Assembly (NCBI GenBank): GCA_965205505.1 | Contig: CBDBHB010000009.1 | Coordinates: 576,001 to 640,000 of the forward strand | Direction of reading: 5' to 3' | Length of the DNA stretch: 64,000 nt | Origin: Acidobacteriota bacterium | GTDB lineage: Bacteria > Acidobacteriota > UBA890 > WLXD01 | Part shown: piece after piece, positions 5,470 to 45,283 of the stretch | Layout: each line of letters opens with the position of its first letter | Numbering within the stretch: position 1 is the stretch's first letter | Program-made: the position numbers and the translations under genes | Notes under the pieces: generated by a model | The model's input: only the letters and a program-made list of their open reading frames with translations | The model's database searches: none | Told to the model about the DNA's origin: nothing

Positions 5470-5656
5470 AAGCGTAGACAGTTCGACCTTGTGTCGGGAA
5501 GCGGGTGCGAATCCCGCGCTGCCGCGCAACTGTGATCGGGGACGAAAGCCGCCCGAGGAGCGGCCGCGTCGTGCGGTCGGCTCCGGAACGCCACTGGTAG
5601 CACCGGGAAGGTGGCGGTGAGTAGGACGATCCGAGAGCCAGGAAACCGAACCGGCC
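5470..5656 (+). ncRNA. Cobalamin (AdoCbl) riboswitch
   Basis: GGGAA-GCGGGTGCGAATCCCGC-GCTGCCGCGCAACTGTGA...GCCACTG...GGGAAGG...AGCCAGGAAACC B12-box motifs directly upstream of a btu-type ABC operon. Boundaries approximate. Confidence 0.9.
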
Positions 5657-7502: not shown

Positions 7503-8349
7503 GGGCAGTGCCTTCCGGTGGTTGGGGCTGCTCGGTGTCATCCCGCCGCTGTTCGCAGCGTCTTTGGAGTTGCAGGGGCCAGCTCAGCGGATTGTCTCTT
7601 TGGTGCCGGGGGCCACCGAGGTACTGTTCGCGATCGGCGCCGGCGAGCGCGTCGCCGGCGTGAGCAGCTTCGACCACTGGCCTGCCGAGGTCGAGCGGCT
7701 TCCCCGCGTAGGGGGCCTGATCGACCCGGATCTGGAGGCGATTCTGACGCTGCGCCCCGATCTGGCGATCATCGATCCGTCGCAGGGCTCGCTGCGGCGT
7801 CAGCTGGCAGGGAGCGGCATCGCTACGTACGAATACGCCACCGCCGATGTGGCTGATCTGTTGCGCAACATGCGGGCGATTGGAGACTTGCTCGGCCTCT
7901 CAAACCGAGCAGCGCAGTCTGCAGACAGGCTGCGCGCCGACCTCGACGCTGTTCGCGCCCGCTACGCTTCCGACGATCCGCCGAGCGTCCTGATGGTCTT
8001 CGGCCGGCGCGATGGTAGCTTCGCCGAGCTGTGGGTAAACGGCGGCATCGGTTTTCTCGAGGAGCTCACCGCCATCGCCGGCGGGCGCAACGTCTTCGGC
8101 GATGTGGAGCGTCCAGGGTTCAAGGCAGGGCTCGAGGCGGTCATCGCGCGTGTTCCCGACGTCGTCGTGGAGCTTCGCACCGACGGACAGGATGCCGTGC
8201 CGACGGCGATGCTCGAGATGGAGTGGCGAACCTTGCCGGGGTTCGCGAACGTCCGGGTGGTGACGCTCGCCGCAGGCTGGATGCTGGTACCGGGTCCGCG
8301 CGTTGCCGAAGCCGCACAGGTGCTGGGCGAGCGGTTGCACCGGCGTTGA
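7495..8349 (+). CDS. btuF: Cobalamin-binding periplasmic protein
   Basis: RIVSLVPGATEVLFAIG, DLEAILTLRPDL, PGPR motifs; signal-peptide-like N-terminus. Confidence 0.85.
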   Translation: MRRGSAFRWLGLLGVIPPLFAASLELQGPAQRIVSLVPGATEVLFAIGAGERVAGVSSFDHWPAEVERLPRVGGLIDPDLEAILTLRPDLAIIDPSQGSLRRQLAGSGIATYEYATADVADLLRNMRAIGDLLGLSNRAAQSADRLRADLDAVRARYASDDPPSVLMVFGRRDGSFAELWVNGGIGFLEELTAIAGGRNVFGDVERPGFKAGLEAVIARVPDVVVELRTDGQDAVPTAMLEMEWRTLPGFANVRVVTLAAGWMLVPGPRVAEAAQVLGERLHRR

Positions 8350-8384
8350 CGGACGTCAGCCACCCGGCGCGAGCGGCGACTCGT

Positions 8385-9413
8385 CTACCGCGCCGCCGCA
8401 ATGCGCTGACGAGCCCTGCGTTCCGCCAGACGGGTCGTTGACTCACCGCTGGCAAGCGATTCCTGCAACAGCTCGCGCGTCGTGTCCGCGAGCCCCTCGA
8501 GCAACGCTTCCTGGTCGCTACGTCCGTGGAAATCGCAGACCCCCAAGATCACCGCCCCCGACGAGGAAACGACGTCTGGCACGAACAGGATCTCGCGCTC
8601 CTTGAACACCGCCTCCACCGCTGGCGCCGCGAGGATGTTGTTGGCGGCACCGCACACTGCCCAGGCGCGCAGCTCTCCTGCCGCCGCGCTTGTCAGCAGG
8701 CCGCCGTCGGCGCAGGGAGCGAGAAGATCGATGTCGGCTCGCAAGAGCTCAGCCGCCGGTACGACGGTTCCTCCCACGGCCTCGGCGGTTTTCTTTGCGG
8801 CGTGCTCGTCGAGGTCGGCGATCACCAGCCGCGCTCCGGCAGCAGCGAATACCCGCGCCACCGCGTCGCCGATGCTGCCGCACCCCTGAACGCCGATGCG
8901 CAGTCCCGTCAGACCGGGGCGTCCGGCGATCTCCACGCAGGCGCTTGCGCAGCCCACGACTCCTCGGGCAACCATGACCGCCATATCCGTCTCGTCGGTG
9001 CGTACCCAGCGGCTCCGCGAGGCCATGATCTCTAGGTCGGCGCGCGATGTACCGAGGTCGCCGGCGGTCATGAACCTGCCGCCCATGTCCTCAACCCGCT
9101 GGCCCAGTATCGAGAAAGCCGCTGCTCGATCGAGCTCGGGGCGGTCCATCACCACCATCTTGGCGCCGCCGGCGTCGACCCCCGCGAGGGCGCATTTCAG
9201 GGTCATGGCGCGCGCCAGGCGTCGGGCATCGCCGGCCGCGTCCGCTGCCGATTCGTAGCTCCAGGTTCGTGTGCCGCCGGCGGCCGGGCCGAGCGTCGTG
9301 TCGTCGATCACCAGAAAAGCGCGCAGCCCCGAGCTCGCGTCGGTAAAGATCGTCAGCTGTTGCGCTCCGGTGTCTTCGAGTTGTGACAGCAGCGATTCTA
9401 TTTCTGCGCTCAT
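8385..9413 (-). CDS. Glu/Leu/Phe/Val dehydrogenase family protein
   Basis: DTTLGPAAGGTR, LARAMTLK, GGAK, QGCGSIG, CGAANN motifs. Start set at MSAEIES. Confidence 0.88.
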   Translation of the reverse strand: MSAEIESLLSQLEDTGAQQLTIFTDASSGLRAFLVIDDTTLGPAAGGTRTWSYESAADAAGDARRLARAMTLKCALAGVDAGGAKMVVMDRPELDRAAAFSILGQRVEDMGGRFMTAGDLGTSRADLEIMASRSRWVRTDETDMAVMVARGVVGCASACVEIAGRPGLTGLRIGVQGCGSIGDAVARVFAAAGARLVIADLDEHAAKKTAEAVGGTVVPAAELLRADIDLLAPCADGGLLTSAAAGELRAWAVCGAANNILAAPAVEAVFKEREILFVPDVVSSSGAVILGVCDFHGRSDQEALLEGLADTTRELLQESLASGESTTRLAERRARQRIAAAR

Positions 9414-38448: not shown

Positions 38449-40593
38449 ATGCATCGACGCGCACTCACGCTGTTGACGCTCATCCTCAGCCTGGGGGTGA
38501 CCCTGGATCCTGCCTCGAGTCTGGCTCAGGAGGCGGCGTCCGCAGCAACGGAGCCCGGCCGTCTGGCTGCCGAAGACACCCTGCGGATCAGCAACGTCGG
38601 CAACCCGCGCATCTCGCCGGACGGCGAGTGGGTGCTTTACACGGTGGCGAGCCGCGATATGGATGACGACGAGCTGTCGCGCCACACGCACTTGTATCGC
38701 GTACGTGTTGACGGCACCGGGGGGAGGCAACTCACCCGGGGAGACAGCTCCGCCAGCTCGCCACAGTGGTTTCCGTCGGGCGACAAGTTCGCCTTCCTTC
38801 GCGAGGTCGACGAGGAAAGTCAGGTATTTGCCATGCACACCGATGGCGGGGAGGCCTGGCAGGTGACGGATTCCGAGGAAGGGGCTGGCAGCTACGGGCT
38901 CTCTCCGGACGGCAGCAAGATCTGGTTCGTGGCGCGTGACCCCGAGACCGCTGAGCAGAAGCGGCGCGCCAAACAGCACGACGATGCCGTCGTCGTCGAT
39001 GCCGAGTTCCGCTTCAGTCACCTCTGGTTGCACGATATGGAGGCGGGCGAGTCGACGCGGCTGACGGACGGCGACTTTACCGTCAGCGACCCACGCTGGT
39101 CGCCTGATTCCAGCCGTATCGCCTTTGTTACGCGACCGACGACCAAGGTGAACGACGGCTGGAACAGCGACATCCGCGTGGCCGACGTTGCTTCGGGCGA
39201 GTCGCGGGTGTTGTTCCAGAACCCAGGGCCCGATACCTCTCCGCGCTGGTCGCCGGACGGCGACAAGATCGCGTTCACCGCCAACACCCACTCCGGAACA
39301 ACCGTCTGGCACAGCAAGCTCTACCTGCTGCCGGCGGATGGCGGTGGCGAACCCAAGATCTTGCTCGAGGACTTCGACCTGAACGCCGGCGCGCCGATCT
39401 GGGCTCCCAACGGCGCCGATATCTATTGGGCCACCGGTGAGCGCACCGACGTGGCGCTCTACTCGGTGCAGCTAGCTACCGACGAAGTTCTGCGGCACGG
39501 TGTGCCCTCGGGCGCCAACTTCCAGTTCCAGCTGTCGCACGACGGCGGTCGCTGGGTATGGGTGCACTCCAACCCGGCGCATCCGTCCGAGCTCTACACC
39601 GCGCCGTCGAACGATCTTTCGCAGCTCACTCGTCTCACCACCCACAATGCCTGGTTGGCGGAGTCGTTCGAGCTCGCCGCCGCCCGCCCCATCACCTGGA
39701 CCAACTCCGACGGTCAGGAGATCGAGGGCGTGGTGCACTTTCCGATCGGGTATCGGGAGGGGACGGCGTACCCGCTTATCGTCCACCCGCACGGTGGTCC
39801 CAGCGGCGCGGTGATGACGTCGTTCAACTCCACCAACCAGATGCTCGCCGCCAACGGCTTCCTGGTGTTGCAGCCCAACTTCCGCGGCAGCTCCAACTAC
39901 GGTCAGGAGTTCCTCAACGCCAACCGTGACAACTGGGGCACACGCGACTACGACGACATCATGACCGGGGTCGACGACCTCATCGCGCGCGGCTGGGCCG
40001 ATGCCGATCGGATGGTCGCGTACGGTTGGAGCTACGGTGGCTACATGACCTTTTGGATGTCCACCCAGACCGATCGCTTCAAGCTGATCTCACCGGGTGC
40101 CGGGCTCACCAACTTGTACTCGATGTACAGCACGACCGACATTCCGGGATACATGGGGTGGTTCTTCGGCACGCCGTGGGACGACGAGGACGCGTACCGA
40201 CGCCACTCGCCCATTCGCCACGTGAAGAACGTCACCGCCAAGATGCTGATCATGCACGGCGCGAACGATGCCCGCGTGCCACCGGAGCAGGCGGTGGAGT
40301 TCTACCAGGCGCTGCGCGACCTGGGTAAGGACGTCACGTACATTTCCTATCCGCGCCAGGGACACGGCATCGGTGAGCCGCGACTGCAAGTGGACCGCCT
40401 GCGTCGTTATGTGTGCGCGTTCACCGATGCTGTAGGGATGGACGCTACCACCGAGGATTGCGACGGCGGCGTGCCGGCGGTGCCTGCCGAGCCTGCCGAA
40501 GAGAGCGAGGACACGGCAGCGGGCAGCAGCGCCGACGATGACAACGATGCGCTGGGAGACGGTACTTTCCGTGTCGTCGAGGCGCACGAATAG
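38449..40593 (+). CDS. S9-family (acylaminoacyl/dipeptidyl) peptidase with PD40 beta-propeller
   Basis: Signal peptide; SPDG/WSPD repeats; HGGP, GWSYGG nucleophile, HGANDARV, QGHG. Confidence 0.93.
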   Translation: MHRRALTLLTLILSLGVTLDPASSLAQEAASAATEPGRLAAEDTLRISNVGNPRISPDGEWVLYTVASRDMDDDELSRHTHLYRVRVDGTGGRQLTRGDSSASSPQWFPSGDKFAFLREVDEESQVFAMHTDGGEAWQVTDSEEGAGSYGLSPDGSKIWFVARDPETAEQKRRAKQHDDAVVVDAEFRFSHLWLHDMEAGESTRLTDGDFTVSDPRWSPDSSRIAFVTRPTTKVNDGWNSDIRVADVASGESRVLFQNPGPDTSPRWSPDGDKIAFTANTHSGTTVWHSKLYLLPADGGGEPKILLEDFDLNAGAPIWAPNGADIYWATGERTDVALYSVQLATDEVLRHGVPSGANFQFQLSHDGGRWVWVHSNPAHPSELYTAPSNDLSQLTRLTTHNAWLAESFELAAARPITWTNSDGQEIEGVVHFPIGYREGTAYPLIVHPHGGPSGAVMTSFNSTNQMLAANGFLVLQPNFRGSSNYGQEFLNANRDNWGTRDYDDIMTGVDDLIARGWADADRMVAYGWSYGGYMTFWMSTQTDRFKLISPGAGLTNLYSMYSTTDIPGYMGWFFGTPWDDEDAYRRHSPIRHVKNVTAKMLIMHGANDARVPPEQAVEFYQALRDLGKDVTYISYPRQGHGIGEPRLQVDRLRRYVCAFTDAVGMDATTEDCDGGVPAVPAEPAEESEDTAAGSSADDDNDALGDGTFRVVEAHE

Positions 40594-40693
40594 CTGATCC
40601 GATGGTCGGCGCCCACGACGGCGGTGTACCCGAGCGCGCTGTGGACGCCGCCATGCTCCACGAGCGGCTGGGACCCGTGTCTTCTGGCCCCCC

Positions 40694-40753
40694 GAAAAAT
40701 CCGTACCGAACTGGCTTTCAGTGACTTTTATAATGGGACACTATCCAGAAGTG
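40694..40753 (+). repeat. Left 60-bp direct repeat (att/dif-like)
   Basis: Aligns without gaps to 42923-42982 (51/60; core 36/38, TTTCAGTGACTTTYATAATGGGACACTAYCCAGAAGTG). Confidence 0.85.
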
Positions 40754-40982
40754 GGTGGTGTCATAATATCGTTTTCTTTCATCTGTTCTGATGTTGAAGT
40801 TTAGTCACCATGGTGAAATAATCCAAATCAACTTCAGAAGCATAGCCCGGCGGAAGCTCCGGTAGACACCTGTTTGGCCCGAAACAACTCAGGCCGGACG
40901 GTCGGCGCACCCGCCGGGCGTTCCTGTGTCTTAACGTGAATCGATTCGCGTCATATGATCTTTCTGTCTGCCGGAGATCATC

Positions 40983-41522
40983 ATGAGCACCGACAAAGAG
41001 TTCGCGTCCACGCTGGTGGAGCAGTACCACCAGCTCACCAGTCGCGCCGACGAAATCAAAGTCGAGCGGTCGAACCTACACGAGCAGCAGGAAGCGCTCT
41101 CCACCGAGCTAACCAAGGTCGAGAACCTGCTACTCGGGATCTGGGACCTACTCGATGAGATCGGCGACTCCAGCAAGCTCCTCGGAGCGGATCTTCCGTT
41201 CAAAATCCCCGAAGAGGACGTGTCGGCCGACGAAGCGATTCTGACGCACCTTGCCAAGCGCTCGGAGCCTCGCGCCGTGCAGAAGGTCGCCATACTCATC
41301 TCCGCGAAGGGACTCCTCGGGCTGGGCGAGTACACGGATTCCGGTATTCGGTCAGCCATCGCCCGCGCTTGCAAGCGTGGCGATCTAGAACGTGTGGGGC
41401 GGGGCAGGGTCCGATTATCAGAAGAGGCGGTTGAGAAGTACGAGCCCAAGTCAAGTGGCGGTGGTGCTGGTGTTGTCATTCATGGAGGCGCCCTCGTGAA
41501 TGACGACGACATTCCGTTCTAG
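40983..41522 (+). CDS. Coiled-coil plus winged-helix protein with an SSB-type C-terminal DDDIPF tail
   Basis: GGAG RBS; N-terminal heptads; DSGIRSAIARACKRGDLERVGRGRVRL wHTH-like segment; Gly-rich linker ending NDDDIPF. Confidence 0.7.
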   Translation: MSTDKEFASTLVEQYHQLTSRADEIKVERSNLHEQQEALSTELTKVENLLLGIWDLLDEIGDSSKLLGADLPFKIPEEDVSADEAILTHLAKRSEPRAVQKVAILISAKGLLGLGEYTDSGIRSAIARACKRGDLERVGRGRVRLSEEAVEKYEPKSSGGGAGVVIHGGALVNDDDIPF

Positions 41523-41559
41523 AAAAAGAGCCCGCCGCTGCGGTAACAGCGACGGGCTC
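41521..41559 (-). terminator. Intrinsic terminator-like hairpin for minus-strand transcripts
   Basis: GAGCCCGCCGCTG-CGGTAA-CAGCGACGGGCTC preceded by AGAAAAA (U-tract on the minus strand). Confidence 0.6.
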
Positions 41560-41573
41560 CAACTACTCATGAT

Positions 41574-41647
41574 GGCACCGTAGACAAACTGGCAAAGTCG
41601 CCCGGCTAGCAAACTGGGAGATCCGGGTCCGAATCCCGGCGGTGCCT
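41574..41647 (+). tRNA. tRNA-Cys-like RNA or pseudo-tRNA with an 8-nt anticodon loop
   Basis: Acceptor GGCACCG/CGGTGCC with U73; D arm GAC-AAACTGGCAAA-GTC; anticodon arm CCCGG-CTAGCAAA-CTGGG; T arm CCGGG-TCCGAAT-CCCGG; no encoded CCA. Confidence 0.7.
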
Positions 41648-41685
41648 CACTTGTTTCACTCCCGCTAGCAAACAGGAGGTAGCTC

Positions 41686-41730
41686 ATGAGCTACACGCGG
41701 ATTCTACCGCGTGGCCCGCCAGCCGCGTAA
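41686..41730 (+). CDS. Possible 14-aa peptide MSYTRILPRGPPAA
   Basis: Strong AGGAGGT RBS 5 nt upstream; the ATG sits inside the perfect palindrome GTAGCTCATGAGCTAC. Confidence 0.3.
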   Translation: MSYTRILPRGPPAA

Positions 41731-41885
41731 CCCTGAAACGCGCAAGGGGCCGGGGTTGCGTCTCGCGATTGCGCCCCGGCCACCTAAAAGTCGCCCGGCC
41801 CGCTGCCGTTAAGGTTGCGGCGACCGAGTGGGCGCTTGACGACCTGCTCGTGTGGGAAGCGCCTTACTGAGTAGCGTGGCCAGAC

Positions 41886-42443
41886 CTAGCAGCACTGCCG
41901 CGCAGCGCGACTATACGAGCTGTAGATTTCGACCTGTGGCGGCCGAGGGCGATTTATCCAATTGGCTAGACGCCGCAGTAGTCTGCGCAGCCAGGCATGA
42001 TCAGCGAGCAAACGGATCAGCACGCTGTTATCGTAGATGATCTTCAAAATCGCGTCGAAATACGAGGAGACAACCCTCTCCACCCGTTCATCTCCCAGAG
42101 ACCTGATCTGGTGTCGTAGCTCAGCGAGCCTCTTCTGCTCCGCAGGGTCTTTTCCGGAGCGCCGCCCCTCTTCGATTACGGCTACGAAGTTCCGAAAGTT
42201 CAGGTGATCTACGTTTCTTACTAGCTTGTTGGTGGTCCCATAGAACGTCGTAAAGATCATGTTGTCTTCTGACAGGCGCTTTTCTGCGACCAGTTGCACC
42301 AGCTCATCACGTACCGCATACAACCCATATGCTCTTATCTCTCGATCAACGCGGCGTAAGCGCCACCGCGCAACCACGAGTGACGCCGCTAGGACGAAAG
42401 CGACCACCGTCAAAACTGCGATGTCAGCCAGACTCATCGTCAT
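41886..42443 (-). CDS. Hypothetical protein with N-terminal TM anchor (island)
   Basis: TM helix then LYAVRDELVQLVAE...NKLVRN.DHL; overlaps the upstream gene; GGAG RBS. Confidence 0.7.
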   Translation of the reverse strand: MTMSLADIAVLTVVAFVLAASLVVARWRLRRVDREIRAYGLYAVRDELVQLVAEKRLSEDNMIFTTFYGTTNKLVRNVDHLNFRNFVAVIEEGRRSGKDPAEQKRLAELRHQIRSLGDERVERVVSSYFDAILKIIYDNSVLIRLLADHAWLRRLLRRLANWINRPRPPQVEIYSSYSRAARQCC

Positions 42444-42714
42444 CTCCCTCGCTAAGGGGAAGGTCGCTCTGGTACCTAGAGTCGCTCGACAGCCTCTCTC
42501 TTAGTATGACGTCCTGGAGCTTGTTCCGGTTCTCCACGAGGCGCGTGATTTCCGCGTTTTTGTCTTCCAATCGCCGCTCATACATTCGATGAAACTGGTA
42601 GACGTACAACGCCAACAGGAGAAAGAGCAGTGCTGCGAAAGGCTCGTATTGGGTCCAAACATCCTCGATGATTCGGCGCAACAAGTCTGCCCAGCCGGAT
42701 GAAACTTGCTGCAT
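42424..42714 (-). CDS. Small single-TM plus coiled-coil hypothetical protein (island)
   Basis: FAALLFLLLALYVY TM followed by YERRLEDKNAEITRLVENRNKLQD coiled coil; coupled to the next gene. Confidence 0.65.
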   Translation of the reverse strand: MQQVSSGWADLLRRIIEDVWTQYEPFAALLFLLLALYVYQFHRMYERRLEDKNAEITRLVENRNKLQDVILRERLSSDSRYQSDLPLSEGDDDESG

Positions 42715-42922
42715 CGAGAGTCCGAGACTTGGTGACTGGAGACGGTCGATAGCGCGCCGCTTGCCGGCCTACCATCGGTCACGGTCAGCATCGGAGTGGG
42801 CGATTCTCCTCGGAAATGGATCACGCGAACTGTTGCATCGATTTTCGCAGCCCGCAAGGTGCGGAGTGTCTGTAGTTTGAACAGAAGAGGCACGAAATTG
42901 TCTCCTTCCGTATCTGAGCCGA

Positions 42923-42982
42923 GAAAAATCCATGCCGGTCTACGTTTCAGTGACTTTCATAATGGGACACTACCCAGAAGTG
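42923..42982 (+). repeat. Right 60-bp direct repeat (att/dif-like)
   Basis: Partner of 40694-40753. Confidence 0.85.
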
Positions 42983-42984
42983 AC

Positions 42985-43014
42985 TTGACATTAACGTTTG
43001 ATTTGTCGTACAAT
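42985..43014 (+). promoter_or_regulatory. Near-consensus sigma70 promoter
   Basis: TTGACA-N18-TACAAT. Confidence 0.65.
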
Positions 43015-43019
43015 CTTCT

Positions 43020-43069
43020 GATTGATGCTGTAAACGCTCCGTCCGGGCAGCCGCCGGGCGGTTTTTTTT
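43020..43069 (+). ncRNA. Candidate small RNA of about 50 nt
   Basis: Lies between the promoter and a terminator, with no convincing plus-strand gene downstream. Confidence 0.4.
43039..43069 (+). terminator. Rho-independent terminator
   Basis: CCGTCCGG-GCAGCCG-CCGGGCGG followed by T8. Confidence 0.8.
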
Positions 43070-43333
43070 GTCCCACGGACGGACGTCGCCGGCACGCGCG
43101 TAACCCGGATCTGATCGTCGTTCTCTTCCAGGGACCAGACTCGTGACGCGATGGACTTCTGTGGATCCTTCTCGGGTGTTGCCATTGCTATGGCGCTGAG
43201 CACGCCCCCGAGCGGCCGCTTCAGCCGCGGATCATCACGAATCCGTCGCCGTGAAGGGGGGCGCGGACTCTAGCATGCTCGGTCTCGCCGCCTGCCAGCC
43301 CGGCTGGTAGACGAGCATTGCCGCGGATGCCGG

Positions 43334-45163
43334 CTAGCTGAGTGAGAGCACACGTTCGACCTCTGCCGCGACCTCGGTGGCGAGCTCGGCGCACTCGGCC
43401 AGCGCGTTCCCGATGTCGCTCCGCATCTCGGCGCCGAATTCAGCGTCGTCGATGTGCCGCAGGTTGATGCGCACGTTGTAGGCCGCCGCCTGCGCCCCTG
43501 CGTGTGCCAGCAGCGCACCGGTGCCGGCGTCGCTGATCATCTCGGGGTCGGCCATCGCGGCGATCTCACGGCAAACGCGAAGCGCATCGCGACACTGCTG
43601 CACGGTGGCCAGCGGTACGCGGGTGGCAGCCTTGTAGCCCTCCTGCATGGATTCGGCGCGCTCTGCCTGCTGGGCTTCGGTGTCGCGCGGCATACGCATG
43701 GCGTCGAGCACCTTGTCGAAGGCGCTGGTGTCGGCGTCGACGCCACGCAGCAGGGCGTCCTTGACGGCCTGGCCGCGCTCGGCGATCGAGCAGAGCTCGT
43801 CGTACCGGTCGCTAAACTCTCCCTTGCCGACGCTGAGGTTGGCCACCATGGCGGCGAGGGCGCCGCCCAGCGCGCCTGCCAGTGCAGCGACCGAGCCGCC
43901 GCCCGGCGCCGGCGTGTCGCGCGATACCTCGTCGACGAAGTCAAAGGTGGTGCGGTTCACGAGCGGGCCGTCGATCAGCGGCATCGCCAACACCTTTTCG
44001 CCGGCCTCGAACGGCGCCACGTCGCGCAGCCCCATCGATTGAATCGCCGTCTCCATCAGGTCGGGCACCGGCGCGCCGGTCGATTTGCGCATGCGGCGCA
44101 CGTAGAACAGCGCCGCCTCGCGCATGACCTCGTAGGGCACCACGCCGACGATCTCGGAGCCGGTGATCACGATGCCCCGCTCACCGGCCACTTCACGCGT
44201 TGCCTCGAACACCTCGTGCAGCGGCGCCTCCTTGGTGTTGGTGAGGTTCATGCTCACCTGGGCGCGCTTGAACTCCTCGATCACCCAGCCGATGCCCTTG
44301 ACGTGGGTGAACAGTCCGTCCGTGTAGACCGGACCGGTCGGGTTGTCGGGATCGATGCCCAGGTCGTCGTAGCGCTGGCGCAGATCGCCACCGTGCTCCT
44401 TGCAATAGTGGGCCGCGAGCTCATCGAACGACTTGCCGACGAAGTCGCAAGGGCCGCACGGGTAGGTGCCATCTTCGGGAAACTTCACCACCGTGCCCTT
44501 GTAGTAGAAGGGCTCGATGTTGCCGGTGCGCTTCCAACGTCCGCGCTCACGCACCGCGTAGGCAATCTCATTGGCATAGCGCCGGTCGGTGGTGTTCAGA
44601 TCGACGTTGTAGGCGACGAGGAACTCGCGCGCTCCGACCGCGGTGGCGCCGGCACCGGCGTTGAGCTCGGAGGGACCGAAGTCGGGCGCCCACTCCGGGT
44701 CGGCCAGCTTGTCTTCGAGTCCCTCGTACTCTCCCGCTCGCACCCGCGACAGGTTGCGCCGCTGCGGACGGCTGGCGGCGTTCTCGTACAAGTACACGGG
44801 GATTCCCAGCTCGGTACCGATGCGCTCGCCCACCTGCCGCGCGATCTCGGCGCAATCCTCCATGGTGACACCGGAAACCGGCACGAACGGCAACACGTCG
44901 GTGGCGCCGAAGCGCGGATGGGCGCCGGAGTGCTGGCGCATGTCGATCAGCTCGGCGGCGCGCCGCACCGACTGGAACGCGGCCTCGGCAACGGCTTCCG
45001 GCTCGCCGACGAAGGTCACCACCGTGCGGTTGGTATCGGCGCCGGGGTCGACGTCGATCAGCCGCACGCCGGAAACGCTCTGGATGGCGGAGGTGATCTC
45101 CTGGATAACGCTCTCGTCCCGACCCTCCGAGAAGTTGGGGACACACTCGACGATGCGATCCAT
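43334..45163 (-). CDS. ftcD: Glutamate formiminotransferase-cyclodeaminase fusion with an internal insertion
   Basis: IVECVPNFSEGR, HPRFGATDV.PFVP, AQVSMNL; C-terminal TPAPGGGSVAAL and NVRINL cyclodeaminase motifs. Confidence 0.93.
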   Translation of the reverse strand: MDRIVECVPNFSEGRDESVIQEITSAIQSVSGVRLIDVDPGADTNRTVVTFVGEPEAVAEAAFQSVRRAAELIDMRQHSGAHPRFGATDVLPFVPVSGVTMEDCAEIARQVGERIGTELGIPVYLYENAASRPQRRNLSRVRAGEYEGLEDKLADPEWAPDFGPSELNAGAGATAVGAREFLVAYNVDLNTTDRRYANEIAYAVRERGRWKRTGNIEPFYYKGTVVKFPEDGTYPCGPCDFVGKSFDELAAHYCKEHGGDLRQRYDDLGIDPDNPTGPVYTDGLFTHVKGIGWVIEEFKRAQVSMNLTNTKEAPLHEVFEATREVAGERGIVITGSEIVGVVPYEVMREAALFYVRRMRKSTGAPVPDLMETAIQSMGLRDVAPFEAGEKVLAMPLIDGPLVNRTTFDFVDEVSRDTPAPGGGSVAALAGALGGALAAMVANLSVGKGEFSDRYDELCSIAERGQAVKDALLRGVDADTSAFDKVLDAMRMPRDTEAQQAERAESMQEGYKAATRVPLATVQQCRDALRVCREIAAMADPEMISDAGTGALLAHAGAQAAAYNVRINLRHIDDAEFGAEMRSDIGNALAECAELATEVAAEVERVLSLS

Positions 45164-45283
45164 TTGAAGCCTCGTATTCACTGGGCTGGTTGGCGTTTCG
45201 GTCGGCCCATGATGCCCATGGAAACTCGAGGGCACAAACACCGCGTCCGACTAAATGGTGCCGGCTACGATATCAACCGGGTG

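What the first reader, a model, noticed from the sequence alone, without database searches (positions are those of the whole stretch)
41574..41799. tRNA-Cys-derived RNA with an 8-nt, self-complementary anticodon loop echoed at a downstream RBS
Seen: a full cloverleaf with G1-C72, U73 and an A13-A22 mismatch (tRNA-Cys hallmarks), but with loop CU-A-GCA-AA (one extra A), T-loop UCCGAAU and no CCA. Its GCTAGCAAAC (41605-41614) recurs at 41664-41673 immediately before an AGGAGGT RBS, and AAAGTCGCCCGGC (41594-41606) recurs at 41787-41799. GCUAGC is palindromic, so the loop could pair with the copy next to the RBS. Established: P1 c4 and P4 CI are cloverleaf-like RNAs processed by RNase P that control downstream expression through loop pairing; 8-nt anticodon loops can cause +1 frameshift suppression. 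Inference: a tRNA repurposed as an antisense or immunity regulator, a quadruplet decoder, or a decoy for anticodon nucleases.
Basis: partly seen in the sequence, partly recalled or inferred. Interest (0 to 1): 0.72.

Follow-up and report, generated by a model that had tools for sequence, protein, structure and literature searches.

The report
Island-borne cysteine tRNA with 8-base loop
A real cysteine-type transfer RNA gene with one extra base in its anticodon loop sits on a tiny mobile island; it may misread the code, but there is little sign that it acts as an antisense regulator.

Summary
ARAGORN and Rfam both call a tRNA at 41574-41648. It has Cys hallmarks, an 8-nt loop CUAGCAAA and T-loop UCCGAAU, and it is the only 8-nt loop among 55 tRNA calls in the genome. 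The extra A is no assembly slip: contigs of three DNA runs and one RNA-library run from four studies show no indel there.

The gene lies on a ~2.2-kb island without an integrase, flanked by 60-bp direct repeats. It follows a coiled-coil/wHTH gene.

A same-genus genome carries the homologous module. Its tRNA keeps the cloverleaf through 5 compensatory pair changes but has a 7-nt GGA loop. "No CCA" is ordinary here: only 10 of 55 tRNAs encode it.

The loop echo at the RBS is real, but the homologue shows no loop-target complementarity and Rfam's c4 models do not match. A c4/CI-type regulator is therefore unlikely.

Best reading: an accessory Cys-type tRNA with altered decoding, of the irregular mobile-element tRNA kind. 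A decaying relic is not excluded.

Loop CUAGCA is the exact complement of UGC-UAG, the last codon plus stop of the convergent neighbour. That match was found post hoc.

The parts
41574..41648 (+). tRNA-Cys-type gene with an 8-nt anticodon loop. Loop 41606-41613 = CUAGCAAA, extra A at 41608. T-loop 41628-41634 = UCCGAAU. Discriminator U at 41647.
   Evidence: ARAGORN. Rfam RF00005 at 47.6 bits. No loop indel in contigs of 4 runs. Against the G003 homologue, 5 both-sided and 2 one-sided pair changes and 0 broken among 17 pairs of the acceptor, anticodon and T stems.
40983..41522 (+). orf179: an N-terminal coiled-coil-like half (my reading of the translation) followed by a winged-HTH. It lies directly upstream of the tRNA and is probably co-transcribed with it.
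   Evidence: Pfam AbiEi_4 at E 0.0024, below cut-off. PADLOC AbiEi at E 3.1e-5, residues 99-152. The G003 ORF in the same position is 31% identical, E 8e-16. Only 2 clusters found among 5.8 billion proteins. Promoter-like site at 40931-40959, and none listed between the ORF and the tRNA.
41527..41560 (.). Hairpin HP-A between orf179 and the tRNA. On the minus strand it is followed by TTTTT, which is terminator-like. It is identical in G003.
   Evidence: Terminator scan: 15 pairs, minus strand. Every column of the hairpin is identical in the alignment. Single copy in the genome.
41659..41678 (+). Predicted hairpin CUCC...GGAG. Its loop shows the second GCUAGCAAAC (41664-41673) and its 3' arm is part of the AGGAGG Shine-Dalgarno sequence (41674-41679).
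   Evidence: Minimum-free-energy fold. Repeat D2. The sequence is poorly conserved in G003.
41686..41730 (+). 14-codon sORF (MSYTRILPRGPPAA) after the Shine-Dalgarno sequence. Its ATG sits in the loop of a perfect 16-nt palindrome at 41679-41694.
   Evidence: Read from the sequence. Palindrome I4. G003 has an 11-codon sORF (MIARAPPSAHP, read from the alignment) and lacks the palindrome. Translation is not shown.
41745..41785 (.). Hairpin HP-B (GGGGCCGGGG...CCCCGGCC), conserved in G003.
   Evidence: Folds. Single copy in the genome.
41782..41824 (.). Conserved box ACCTAAAAGTCGCCCGGCCCGCTGC (41782-41806) with hairpin HP-A' (41790-41824). It contains the second copy of the 13-mer. On the minus strand the hairpin is followed by TTTT, so it probably terminates orf185.
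   Evidence: Repeats D3 and D4. In G003 this box resembles HP-A, 15 of 18 (D1 of L020). Alignment. Fold. Minus-strand sequence.
41886..42443 (-). orf185: a convergent neighbour with an N-terminal hydrophobic helix. Its only two Cys are its last two residues. The mRNA ends CAG UGC UGC UAG.
   Evidence: ORF list. Sequence. A 63%-identical homologue, P0002, also ends QCC. PADLOC 1TM-TIR at E 3.6e-6 is a weak lead only. Not found in 25 other genomes of the class or in 400 other genomes of the phylum.
42424..42714 (-). orf96: a small predicted membrane protein that overlaps the start of orf185.
   Evidence: ORF list. No family in Pfam-style libraries. Its reality as a gene is not shown.
40694..40753 (+). 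Left 60-bp direct repeat bounding the island.
   Evidence: 85% identical to the right copy and the only other copy in the genome. Alignment.
42923..42982 (+). Right 60-bp direct repeat bounding the island. The flank beyond it is syntenic with G003.
   Evidence: Window 42957-43072 matches G003:C2:1393207-1393323 beside the FTCD gene at 85%.

Best explanation
This is an accessory tRNA gene of cysteine type carried as cargo on a ~2.2-kb non-autonomous island (40694-42982).

Proposed pathway, all steps inferred:
1. It is transcribed with the upstream coiled-coil/wHTH gene orf179.
2. It is released by the ordinary tRNA-processing enzymes.
3. It receives CCA after transcription, as most tRNAs of this genome must.
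4. The single CysRS recognises it through U73, the A13.A22 core and the GCA triplet.

Its decoding end is not standard. An A inserted between U33 and G34 gives the loop CU-AGCA-AA, which is the layout of +1 frameshift-suppressor and quadruplet tRNAs.

On the ribosome it would therefore compete poorly with the normal tRNA-Cys at UGC codons. Where it wins, above all at UGCU, it would insert Cys with a +1 slip.

It belongs to a small set of Cys-type tRNAs associated with islands or IS elements. In these the anticodon arm alone has been remodelled: GGA in G003 and on G000 contig C4. They are of the same kind as the irregular, identity/anticodon-mismatched tRNAs reported near toxin-antitoxin genes and transposons in presumed acidobacteria.

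Shown: the gene, its fold, its Cys hallmarks, the reality of the 8-nt loop, the island, and conservation of the fold.

Inferred: processing, charging, and any decoding.
For: - Two tRNA detectors agree.
- A13.A22 plus U73 occurs in only 3 of 55 tRNA calls, one of them the canonical tRNA-Cys.
- The nearest tRNA of the host by identity is tRNA-Cys at 0.69. The margin is small, since the next is 0.68.
- The G003 homologue is 71% identical. It keeps 17 of 17 pairs of the acceptor, anticodon and T stems, with 5 changed on both sides, 2 on one side and 0 broken. It also keeps U73 and the GACA/AGUC D stem. Selection has therefore acted on a tRNA shape and on the acceptor-end identity, not only on a hairpin.
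- The extra A is present in contigs from four studies.
- An RNA-library contig of 204 nt covers 41480-41683, that is the orf179 end, HP-A, the tRNA and 35 nt beyond. This fits a co-transcript.
- No promoter-like site lies between orf179 and the tRNA.
- CCA is encoded in only 10 of 55 tRNAs.
- There is one full-length CysRS gene and no paralogue.
- Mobile context: 60-bp direct repeats occur only at the island's ends, the flanks are syntenic with G003, and none of the 35 integrase-family hits of the genome lies in the window.
- In G003 the module sits beside an IS-type transposase. It occurs on two contigs at 99.96% identity over 2559 bp.
- The C4 tRNA(GGA) lies among IS3- and IS1-type transposase genes. 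Its best hit in a relative is a canonical tRNA-Cys.
- Literature, 8-nt loops: an 8-nt loop with the insertion between U33 and position 34 decodes in frame in yeast mitochondrial tRNA-Thr1 (PMC4267643, passages).
- Literature, quadruplet tRNAs: single-base insertions convert tRNAs of all 20 classes into quadruplet decoders in E. coli (PMC9094753, abstract and passages).
- Literature, irregular tRNAs: such tRNAs near toxin-antitoxin genes and transposons are reported in PMC5389517 (abstract and section 16).
Against: - No charging, processing or decoding datum exists.
- The window copy carries two departures that its G003 homologue lacks: the 8-nt loop and C at position 55. The window strain also has a G.U that 4 of 4 other runs lack. 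This looks like relaxed constraint.
- In E. coli the Cys quadruplet tRNA gave too little protein to characterise (PMC9094753, passage).
- A purine at 33a lowered charging of the yeast 8-nt-loop tRNA to about 10% (PMC4267643, Table 1).
- CysRS of E. coli depends strongly on the anticodon. This is recalled, not checked here.
- UGCU is common: 2506 of 14935 Cys codons in a crude set of 4067 ORFs. An efficient UGCU shifter would be harmful.
- No island gene needs a +1 shift to be read.
- Only one diverged homologue exists. The strain-level data are too shallow to show selection on the extra A.
- The contigs cannot give the strand or the ends of the RNA.
Confidence: 0.4

Rival explanations
1. It is a recently disabled relic. 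An island-borne spare tRNA of Cys type suffered a one-base insertion in its loop and a U55C change. It is now a transcribed but useless passenger. The local repeats are by-products of short templated repair or slippage.
For: - The window copy has two non-canonical features that its G003 homologue lacks. The window strain adds a G.U.
- Its Rfam score of 47.6 is lower than the 50.2-58.2 of the other odd tRNAs scored.
- The canonical tRNA-Cys makes it dispensable.
- The island has no integrase and looks like a remnant.
- Another assembly has a rearranged orf185, protein P0003.
- Strain divergence is about 0.6%: 17 other letters in the 2901 nt of X11. Shared presence of the extra A can therefore be simple descent.
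Against: - All stems are intact.
- The conserved tertiary positions other than 55 are present: U8, A14, G18-G19, A21, G53-C61, C56 and A58, read.
- Long-term compensatory evolution shows the fold was under selection until recently.
- A 13-mer plus a 14-of-16 echo is hard to get by chance.
- The locus appears in an RNA library.
Confidence: 0.27
2. It is a tRNA-shaped RNA with a job outside decoding. It could be a decoy or nuclease-resistant stand-in for tRNA-Cys in a conflict between mobile elements. It could be a partner of the island's proteins (wHTH orf179, membrane proteins orf185 and orf96) in a toxin-antitoxin-like or defence module. It could also be a processing or stability signal for the orf179 mRNA.
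For: - Weak defence-type leads: AbiEi-like wHTH at E 3.1e-5 and a 1TM-TIR model at E 3.6e-6.
- Irregular tRNAs near toxin-antitoxin genes that are charged but not used in translation are described (PMC5389517, section 16).
- Phage tRNAs with anticodon-loop changes that escape anticodon nucleases are described (PMC10264068, title and start of the abstract only).
- Relatives carry GGA on a Cys body, which CysRS would be expected to charge poorly. That expectation is recalled.
- The non-coding module is far better conserved than the adjoining protein: 73% overall with a 100%-identical hairpin, against 31%.
Against: - No nuclease, toxin or nucleotidyltransferase gene was found on the island.
- The family hits are below or near threshold.
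- Retention of U73 and A13.A22 in all three Cys-type odd tRNAs argues that charging matters.
- Nothing links orf185 or orf96 to tRNA.
Confidence: 0.2
3. It is a c4/CI-type antisense regulator. After processing, the loop GCUAGC kisses the identical palindrome displayed in the loop of the hairpin that sequesters the Shine-Dalgarno sequence. This controls the sORF or whatever follows it.
For: - Both copies of GCUAGCAAAC sit in predicted hairpin loops.
- The window loop gives the best duplex with the 52 nt downstream among 55 tRNA loops, at -11.4 kcal/mol.
- A Shine-Dalgarno sequence plus ATG at proper spacing is kept in G003.
Against: - The margin is trivial, since the next loops reach -11.1 and -10.0.
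- In G003 the loop-target duplex is -3.0 kcal/mol and ranks 53 of 56, so there is no covariation.
- Rfam's c4 families are not matched.
- There is no phage context.
- No plausible regulated gene lies downstream on the plus strand.
- The sORF differs in length and sequence, and its palindrome is absent in G003.
- The repeats are direct, so only the 6-nt palindrome can pair.
Confidence: 0.06
4. The tRNA-like sequence is recombination scar tissue: an attachment-site copy or a captured fragment of tRNA-Cys left by integration. The 13-nt and 10-nt repeats would be att cores.
For: - The island is flanked by direct repeats.
- tRNA genes are common integration targets. That is established knowledge, recalled.
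- The two repeats together tile the 5' half of the anticodon arm.
Against: - The island's own repeats are a different 60-bp sequence.
- The tRNA is complete rather than a 3' fragment, and is only 69% identical to the host tRNA-Cys.
- Similarity around the repeats stops at 13 and 16 nt, and no tRNA halves flank them.
- The order of the copies does not fit attL-element-attR. This is my reasoning.
- No integrase lies in the window.
Confidence: 0.04

Closest known systems
+1 frameshift-suppressor and quadruplet tRNAs (sufD, SufA6/SufB2, SufJ; engineered qtRNAs)
   Same: Both have an 8-nt anticodon loop made by one extra nucleotide next to the anticodon of an otherwise normal tRNA. The layout here is two bases, four bases, two bases (CU-AGCA-AA), so the predicted quadruplet is UGCU.
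   Different: Those are laboratory mutants or engineered tRNAs selected against a frameshift. This one is a wild gene shared by several environmental strains, sits on a mobile island, and has no known frameshifted target. The Cys qtRNA of E. coli worked too poorly to characterise (PMC9094753, passage). The SufJ and SufB2 papers were seen only as search listings. sufD and SufA6 are recalled.
Irregular tRNAs of presumed acidobacteria near toxin-antitoxin genes and transposons (allo-tRNAs and polycistronic tRNA0/1/2; Mukai et al., PMC5389517)
   Same: Both are extra tRNA genes whose identity elements and anticodon do not agree. Both lie next to mobile or toxin-antitoxin-type genes in soil-type bacteria. 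Some of the reported ones are charged but not used in translation. The look-alikes of orf179 are commonest in Acidobacteriota, which is an Atlas lead only.
   Different: Allo-tRNAs have 8/4 or 9/3 acceptor/T arms and a long variable arm. This one is a plain 7/5 class-I cloverleaf with an enlarged loop. No Cys-type 7/5 tRNA with an 8-nt loop is mentioned in the text I read (abstract, passages and section 16). The supplementary figures S5-S7 could not be seen and may list similar sequences.
Yeast mitochondrial tRNA-Thr1(UAG)
   Same: It is a natural 8-nt anticodon loop with the extra nucleotide between U33 and position 34. It shows that such a loop can decode triplets in frame (PMC4267643, passages; PMC7609411, passage).
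   Different: There the extra base is U and purines at 33a cut charging about tenfold. A co-evolved ThrRS recognises the loop and the tRNA reassigns CUN. Here the extra base is A, there is one ordinary CysRS, and a normal tRNA-Cys coexists.
P1 c4 and P4 CI antisense RNAs
   Same: Both are small structured RNAs lying upstream of a ribosome-binding site that carries a sequence related to a loop of the RNA. RNase P processing is plausible. The biology of c4 and CI is recalled, and no paper was read.
   Different: c4 and CI are not true tRNAs, and their loops are complementary to their targets. Here the sequences are direct repeats sharing only a 6-nt palindrome. Rfam's c4 models do not match. The homologue shows no loop-target match. 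The context is not a prophage.
Phage tRNAs with anticodon-loop changes that escape anticodon nucleases (PMC10264068)
   Same: Both are tRNAs carried by a mobile element whose anticodon loop departs from the host's version.
   Different: Those keep 7-nt loops and normal decoding and sit in phage tRNA arrays. No nuclease is known or seen here. Only the title and the start of the abstract were seen.

Membership tests
Canonical bacterial elongator tRNA-Cys | Class-I 7/5 cloverleaf with the conserved tertiary nucleotides | tested here: met
   ARAGORN drawing. Rfam tRNA at 47.6 bits. U8, A14, G18-G19, A21, G53-C61, C56 and A58 are present by reading.
Canonical bacterial elongator tRNA-Cys | Cys identity set: U73, a GCA triplet, and the A13.A22 core mismatch | tested here: met
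   All three are present. U73 plus A13.A22 is shared by only 3 of 55 tRNA calls, one of them the canonical tRNA-Cys. That these are CysRS identity elements is recalled from E. coli work.
Canonical bacterial elongator tRNA-Cys | Seven-nucleotide anticodon loop with GCA at positions 34-36 | tested here: not met
   The loop is CUAGCAAA, 8 nt. The same is seen in contigs of 4 runs.
Canonical bacterial elongator tRNA-Cys | T-loop T54-U55(psi)-C56 | tested here: not met
   The T-loop is UCCGAAU, so position 55 is C. 53 of 55 calls in the genome have TTC.
Canonical bacterial elongator tRNA-Cys | Aminoacylation by CysRS | not testable with these tools
   One full CysRS gene at C9:2745754-2746653 and no paralogue. 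No biochemical data.
+1 frameshift-suppressor / quadruplet tRNA | One extra nucleotide in the anticodon loop adjacent to the anticodon | tested here: met
   An extra A lies between U33 and G34, judged against the host tRNA-Cys loop CUGCAAA.
+1 frameshift-suppressor / quadruplet tRNA | Measured +1 or four-base decoding | not testable with these tools
   No reporter or proteome data.
+1 frameshift-suppressor / quadruplet tRNA | A gene whose expression needs the shift | tested here: inconclusive
   No island ORF is interrupted. orf185 ends UGC UGC UAG, so both Cys codons are UGCU and a shift would skip the stop. 16 of 4067 crude ORFs end TGC-TAG, so this could be chance.
P1 c4 / P4 CI antisense RNA | Match to the Rfam c4 covariance models | tested here: not met
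   No c4 match at gathering. At E<=10 there is only c4-a1b1 at 11.3 bits against 46.7, on the minus-strand hairpin.
P1 c4 / P4 CI antisense RNA | Loop sequences complementary to targets at a downstream RBS, kept across relatives | tested here: not met
   In the window only the 6-nt palindrome can pair. In G003 the duplex is -3.0 kcal/mol and ranks 53 of 56.
P1 c4 / P4 CI antisense RNA | Prophage or satellite immunity context | tested here: not met
   PHROGs gave 0 matches for orf179 and orf185, the two island ORFs tested. No match to 50,697 phage records.
Allo-tRNA (Mukai et al. 2017) | 8/4 or 9/3 acceptor/T branch and a long variable arm | tested here: not met
   7-bp acceptor, 5-bp T stem and a 4-nt variable loop.
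Irregular mobile-element tRNAs (looser class in the same paper) | Extra tRNA with non-standard decoding end, next to transposon or toxin-antitoxin-type genes | tested here: met
   Island with direct repeats. IS-type transposase beside the G003 homologue. IS genes around the C4 tRNA(GGA). The class has no formal definition.

The most novel reading that the evidence does not exclude
The island carries its own gene-specific recoding device. The six loop bases C32-A36 (CUAGCA) are the exact complement of UGC-UAG, the last sense codon plus amber stop of the convergent neighbour orf185. The only two cysteine codons of orf185 are its last two, and both are UGCU quadruplets. The tRNA would insert Cys there with a +1 slip, skip the stop and add RSGHATQ, ending at the UAA at 41866-41864. 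A membrane protein would then be made in two C-terminal forms. That would be a natural, dedicated four-base decoding pair in a wild bacterium.
Probability: 0.07. Interest if true: 0.85.

Novelty: new variant of a known kind. Interest (0 to 1): 0.5.

Why it matters
Expanded-loop tRNAs that read four bases are known mainly as laboratory suppressor mutants and engineered parts. The passage I read in PMC9094753 expects natural instances to be rare.

Here a wild tRNA gene has that layout. It is shared by strains seen in several studies, appears in an RNA library, and sits on a mobile island. That offers a concrete natural case to test.

With its GGA-bearing relatives, it also extends the little-understood class of mobile-element tRNAs whose identity and anticodon disagree. 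The extension is to plain 7/5 Cys-type bodies.

If it is active, it bears on how mobile DNA tampers with decoding. If it is inactive, it shows how a spare tRNA decays while still looking perfect to gene finders.

Tried and rejected
Searches for more relatives of the module found none beyond G003:
- Exact-pattern scans for the upstream hairpin, the downstream box and a tRNA-body pattern gave 0 in viral contigs, 0 in genome contigs and 0 in metagenome contigs. These tools may leave out records very near the window's genome, and G003 itself was not returned.
- BLAST of the 297-nt module found only G003 among 60 relatives, plus a 27-nt piece in G009.
- Among 400 other genomes of the phylum, 14 'match' at E<=0.01. 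Thirteen of these are pieces of 20-61 nt with E of 9e-5 or weaker.
- Phage and plasmid records gave no match.

Searches on the island proteins:
- Homologues of orf185 were sought in viral contigs, in the class (26 genomes) and in the phylum (401 genomes). None was found beyond G000. The DNA behind P0002 and P0005 could therefore not be examined.
- orf185 is not homologous to the G003 ORF in the corresponding place.
- orf179, orf185 and orf96 have no paralogues in the genome.

From the laid reads:
- In the RNA-library run X19, no contig lay on the rest of the 2.9-kb stretch. The tool states that a part without cover is no evidence, so I do not use it as a sign of enrichment.
- An X4 contig joins 40672 to 42167, skipping 1494 nt, but with only 27 letters on one side. 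This is too weak to claim an island-less or tRNA-less variant.

ARAGORN calls 'tRNA-Ala(cgc)' of 88 nt and 'tRNA-Val(gac)' of 83 nt look like false positives. I kept them in the count of 55.

Readings considered and dropped:
- A tandem-duplication or att-site reading of the two repeats, because the order of the copies and the lack of flanking similarity do not fit.
- The 78-aa minus-strand ORF 41451-41687 across the tRNA as a gene. It runs through the hairpin and the 3' end of orf179.
- A dif-like reading of the 60-bp repeat, which has no right arm. The dif consensus is recalled.

Full report
**What is there**

The window is G000:C9:576001-640000. ARAGORN finds exactly one tRNA in the 64 kb, at 41574-41648 on the plus strand. 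It reports 'tRNA-?(Ala|Cys)' with a four-base anticodon agca in an 8-nt loop. Rfam's tRNA model matches 41574-41647 at 47.6 bits, against a gathering score of 29.

Read against the drawing, the gene has:
- a 7-bp acceptor stem with G1-C72, and discriminator U73
- a D stem GACA/AGUC with an A13.A22 mismatch
- a 5-bp anticodon stem with one G.U
- the loop CUAGCAAA at 41606-41613
- a 4-nt variable loop and a 5-bp T stem
- the T-loop UCCGAAU

A free-energy fold of the 75 nt reproduces the acceptor, anticodon and T arms with the 8-nt loop.

**How unusual it is within its own genome**

ARAGORN tRNAs and one tmRNA in the 5.98-Mb assembly. They include a canonical tRNA-Cys(GCA) at C9:2748722-2748795 next to tRNA-Gly(GCC). 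Among the 55:
- 1 has an 8-nt loop.
- 53 have a T-loop beginning TTC. The exceptions are this gene and a dubious 83-nt call.
- Only 10 encode CCA.

The 8-nt loop and C55 are real departures.

A13.A22 together with U73 occurs in 3 of 55 calls. These are the canonical tRNA-Cys, this gene, and a 76-nt 'tRNA-Ser(GGA)' without a long variable arm on contig C4. By plain identity the nearest host tRNA is tRNA-Cys at 0.69, but the next is 0.68. The Cys assignment therefore rests on the hallmarks, not on overall similarity. The host's Cys loop is CUGCAAA, so the odd loop equals it plus an A between U33 and G34.

**Is the extra A real?**

Eighteen public runs from 11 studies hold at least half of the sampled words of 41300-42100. 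I laid four of them on 40400-43300. Contigs of X4, X11 and X17 cover the tRNA. So does a contig of X19, an RNA library.
- No inserted or missing letter is listed anywhere in the tRNA.
- The only difference is 41615 T>C, in all four runs. It converts G30.U40 to G30-C40.

These are Logan contigs, not reads, so rare variants cannot be excluded. An assembly slip peculiar to this genome is ruled out.

The X19 contig is 204 nt and covers 41480-41683. That span is the last 43 nt of orf179, the hairpin, the tRNA and 35 nt beyond. This fits a transcript that runs from orf179 through the tRNA. Contigs give neither strand nor ends, however, and DNA can contaminate RNA libraries.

**The repeats**

Both are present: the 13-mer at 41594-41606 and 41787-41799, and the 10-mer at 41605-41614 and 41664-41673, extendable to 14 of 16.

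The null used 3000 random 75-nt windows of this genome against their +-300-nt flanks:

| Longest shared exact word | Share of random windows |
|---|---|
| 13 nt or more | 0.8% |
| 10 nt or more | 12.6% |

Together the two repeats tile the 3' D-stem strand, the 5' anticodon-stem strand and the loop.

The second 10-mer sits in the loop of a predicted hairpin CUCC/GGAG whose 3' arm is part of the Shine-Dalgarno sequence AGGAGG.

**Surroundings**

The flanks are housekeeping genes:
- M19, M32 and S9 peptidases upstream, the S9 gene at 38449-40593
- formiminotransferase-cyclodeaminase at 43334-45241 on the minus strand

Between them, G+C drops to about 0.605, against about 0.65 on either side.

A 60-bp direct repeat lies at 40694-40753 and 42923-42982. 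The copies are 85% identical, and they are the only two in the genome. They bound a ~2.2-kb island.

In the same-genus genome G003, the S9 and FTCD genes and the sequence just right of the island are syntenic, but the island is not there. None of the genome's 35 integrase-family hits lies in the window.

The island holds, in order:
- a promoter-like site at 40931-40959
- orf179, with a weak AbiEi-type winged helix at residues 99-152
- hairpin HP-A at 41527-41560, terminator-like on the minus strand
- the tRNA
- the Shine-Dalgarno hairpin and a 14-codon sORF
- hairpin HP-B and a box with hairpin HP-A'
- on the minus strand, orf185 and orf96, both with hydrophobic helices

orf179 and orf185 are near-orphans, with 2 and 3 clusters among 5.8 billion proteins.

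**The homologue**

G003 has a 270-bp stretch that is 73% identical to 41514-41806. It occurs on two contigs, as part of a 2559-bp segment that is 99.96% identical between them. Nothing comparable was found in the other searches:
- 59 further relatives
- 400 other genomes of the phylum
- viral, genome and metagenome contig collections by pattern
- phage and plasmid records

In G003 the order is the same: an orf179 homologue (31% identity), an identical HP-A, a tRNA, a Shine-Dalgarno sequence with an 11-codon sORF, HP-B and the box. An IS-type transposase follows, and a copy of the 60-bp repeat lies 1.8 kb further on.

The G003 tRNA is 71% identical to the window's. It has a canonical T-loop and a 7-nt loop CUGGAAA. 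The 17 pairs of the acceptor, anticodon and T stems compare as follows:

| Change between the two copies | Pairs |
|---|---|
| Changed on both sides, still paired | 5 |
| Changed on one side to or from a wobble pair | 2 |
| Broken | 0 |

The D stem with its A.A and the discriminator U73 are unchanged. The tRNA shape and the acceptor-end identity have therefore been under selection, while the anticodon arm was rewritten.

The C4 tRNA(GGA) of G000 is a third Cys-type body. It has U73 and A13.A22, and it is 0.74 identical to the host tRNA-Cys. It lies among IS3- and IS1-type transposase genes and an HNH gene. It was not found in 30 relatives, where its only hit is a canonical tRNA-Cys.

**Testing the antisense idea**

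- Rfam's c4 families are not matched.
- There are no phage-type genes.
- With ViennaRNA duplexfold, the window's loop pairs with the 52 nt downstream at -11.4 kcal/mol. This is the best of 55 tRNA loops, but unrelated loops reach -11.1 and -10.0.
- In G003 the tRNA's own loop gives -3.0 kcal/mol against its own downstream region, rank 53 of 56.
- G003 shows no repeats between its anticodon arm and its surroundings.
- The 13-mer's downstream copy lies in a box that is conserved in G003, although the G003 tRNA lacks it. In G003 that box visibly resembles HP-A, 15 of 18.

The echo is therefore specific to the window's lineage. It is not a conserved loop-target pair. Why the anticodon arm matches two nearby sequences remains unexplained. 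Short templated repair is one possibility, and I cannot tell which copy was the template.

**Most likely mechanism**

I favour an accessory Cys-type tRNA with non-standard decoding (confidence 0.4). The steps are:
1. It is co-transcribed with orf179. This is inferred from the promoter scan and the RNA-library contig.
2. It is processed and given CCA like most tRNAs here. This is inferred from the 10 of 55 figure.
3. It is charged by the one CysRS. This is inferred from the retained hallmarks.
4. It reads UGC poorly, or UGCU with a +1 slip. This is inferred by analogy.

The analogies come from passages I read:
- Yeast mitochondrial tRNA-Thr1 has its extra base at the same place and decodes in frame (PMC4267643; PMC7609411).
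- Single insertions make quadruplet tRNAs from all 20 classes in E. coli, though the Cys one performed poorly (PMC9094753).
- Irregular tRNAs with mismatched identity and anticodon lie near toxin-antitoxin genes and transposons in presumed acidobacteria. Some are charged but unused (PMC5389517, section 16).

The look-alikes of orf179 in the ESM Atlas are commonest in Acidobacteriota, which is a lead only.

**Rivals**

- A recent relic (0.27). The window copy alone carries the extra A and C55, and the strain data are too shallow to show selection.
- A non-decoding role, such as a decoy or a partner in a defence or toxin-antitoxin module (0.2). This rests on weak family hits and on the far better conservation of the RNA module than of orf179.
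- The c4-like model (0.06).
- A recombination scar (0.04).

**A post hoc observation**

orf185 ends …R-Q-C-C, and these are its only cysteines. Its mRNA ends CAG UGC UGC UAG.
- Both Cys codons are UGCU, the quadruplet complementary to AGCA.
- The six loop bases CUAGCA are the exact complement of UGC-UAG.
- A +1 slip at the last UGCU would skip the stop and add RSGHATQ; a slip at the first would add ARSGHATQ in place of the second Cys.
- The 63%-identical homologue P0002 also ends QCC. Its DNA could not be fetched.

In a crude set of 4067 high-GC3 ORFs of 100 codons or more, which includes some spurious ones, 4 end in CC and 16 end TGC-TAG. For three island genes the chance is roughly 1%. I found this after looking, so I give it 0.07 as the novel case.

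**Literature limits**

Full-text searches listed no wild bacterial Cys-type tRNA with an 8-nt loop. That claim covers only those four searches. Figures S5-S7 of PMC5389517 and the supplementary tables of PMC9094753 may hold relevant sequences or data. The biology of P1 c4 and P4 CI, and the anticodon dependence of CysRS, are recalled and were not read here.

**Verdict**

The favoured regulatory interpretation is not supported. The object is a real and odd tRNA on a small mobile island, a new variant of the irregular mobile-element tRNAs. Its activity is undecided.

Noticed in passing
window 5495-5648 (+): Cobalamin riboswitch aptamer, Rfam RF00174 at 59.9 bits. It is unrelated to the finding.
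   Followed up: no
window 42985-43070 (+): Just right of the island lies a near-consensus promoter (TTGACA-18-TACAAT, 11 of 12) followed about 25 nt later by a strong terminator (43039-43061 plus T8). This could be a roughly 50-nt small RNA unit. The stretch 42957-43072 is 85% conserved at the syntenic site in G003. No Rfam family matched, the best being 20 bits against 81. The 60-bp island repeat abuts it, so it may mark the integration site.
   Followed up: partly
G000:C4:81188-81263 (-) = L022:11189-11264: A 76-nt tRNA with a Cys-type body (U73, A13.A22, no long variable arm) but a GGA (Ser) anticodon. Rfam scores it 57.3 bits. It lies among IS3- and IS1-type transposase genes and an HNH gene. 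It was not found in 30 relatives. With the G003 tRNA(GGA), this makes two diverged Cys-type bodies (67% identical) sharing the loop CUGGAAA, which hints at a maintained Ser-codon/Cys-identity class.
   Followed up: partly
L020 (G003:C2:5210000-5229999) 7565-8810: About 2-3 kb upstream of the G003 module lie two more odd tRNA calls. One is a 72-nt 'tRNA-Arg(CCT)' called by ARAGORN only. The other is an 87-nt 'tRNA-Ala(UGC)' with a long variable arm (Rfam 58.2 bits). By my own reading of the sequence, unchecked by any family search, an XRE-type HTH-like frame lies on the minus strand between them; a separate ORF at L020:6109-6783 matches Pfam HTH_3. G000 has a similar 88-nt tRNA(UGC) at C9:2962668-2962755, about 3 kb from an integrase-family hit at C9:2965980.
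   Followed up: no
window 41886-41894 (-): orf185 ends Cys-Cys-stop as UGC UGC UAG. These are its only cysteines, and the C-terminal QCC is kept in a 63%-identical homologue. Terminal CC is rare: 4 of 4067 crude ORFs.
   Followed up: partly
window about 42167-42236: Other assemblies seem to carry a rearranged island. Protein P0003 shares its first 69 residues with orf185, which are P0003 residues 1-69 and orf185 residues 3-71, and then diverges. An X4 contig has loose ends at 42195 and a weak joint from 40672 to 42167.
   Followed up: no
window 41679-41694: A perfect 16-nt palindrome GTAGCTCATGAGCTAC places the sORF's ATG in a 4-nt hairpin loop. It is absent from G003, where the alignment shows a 19-nt gap.
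   Followed up: no
window 41563-41576 and 41861-41874: Imperfect inverted repeats (79% complementary over 14 nt, with a perfect 7-nt core CTACTCA/TGAGTAG) bracket the whole tRNA-sORF-hairpin module (I3). Their meaning is unknown.
   Followed up: no
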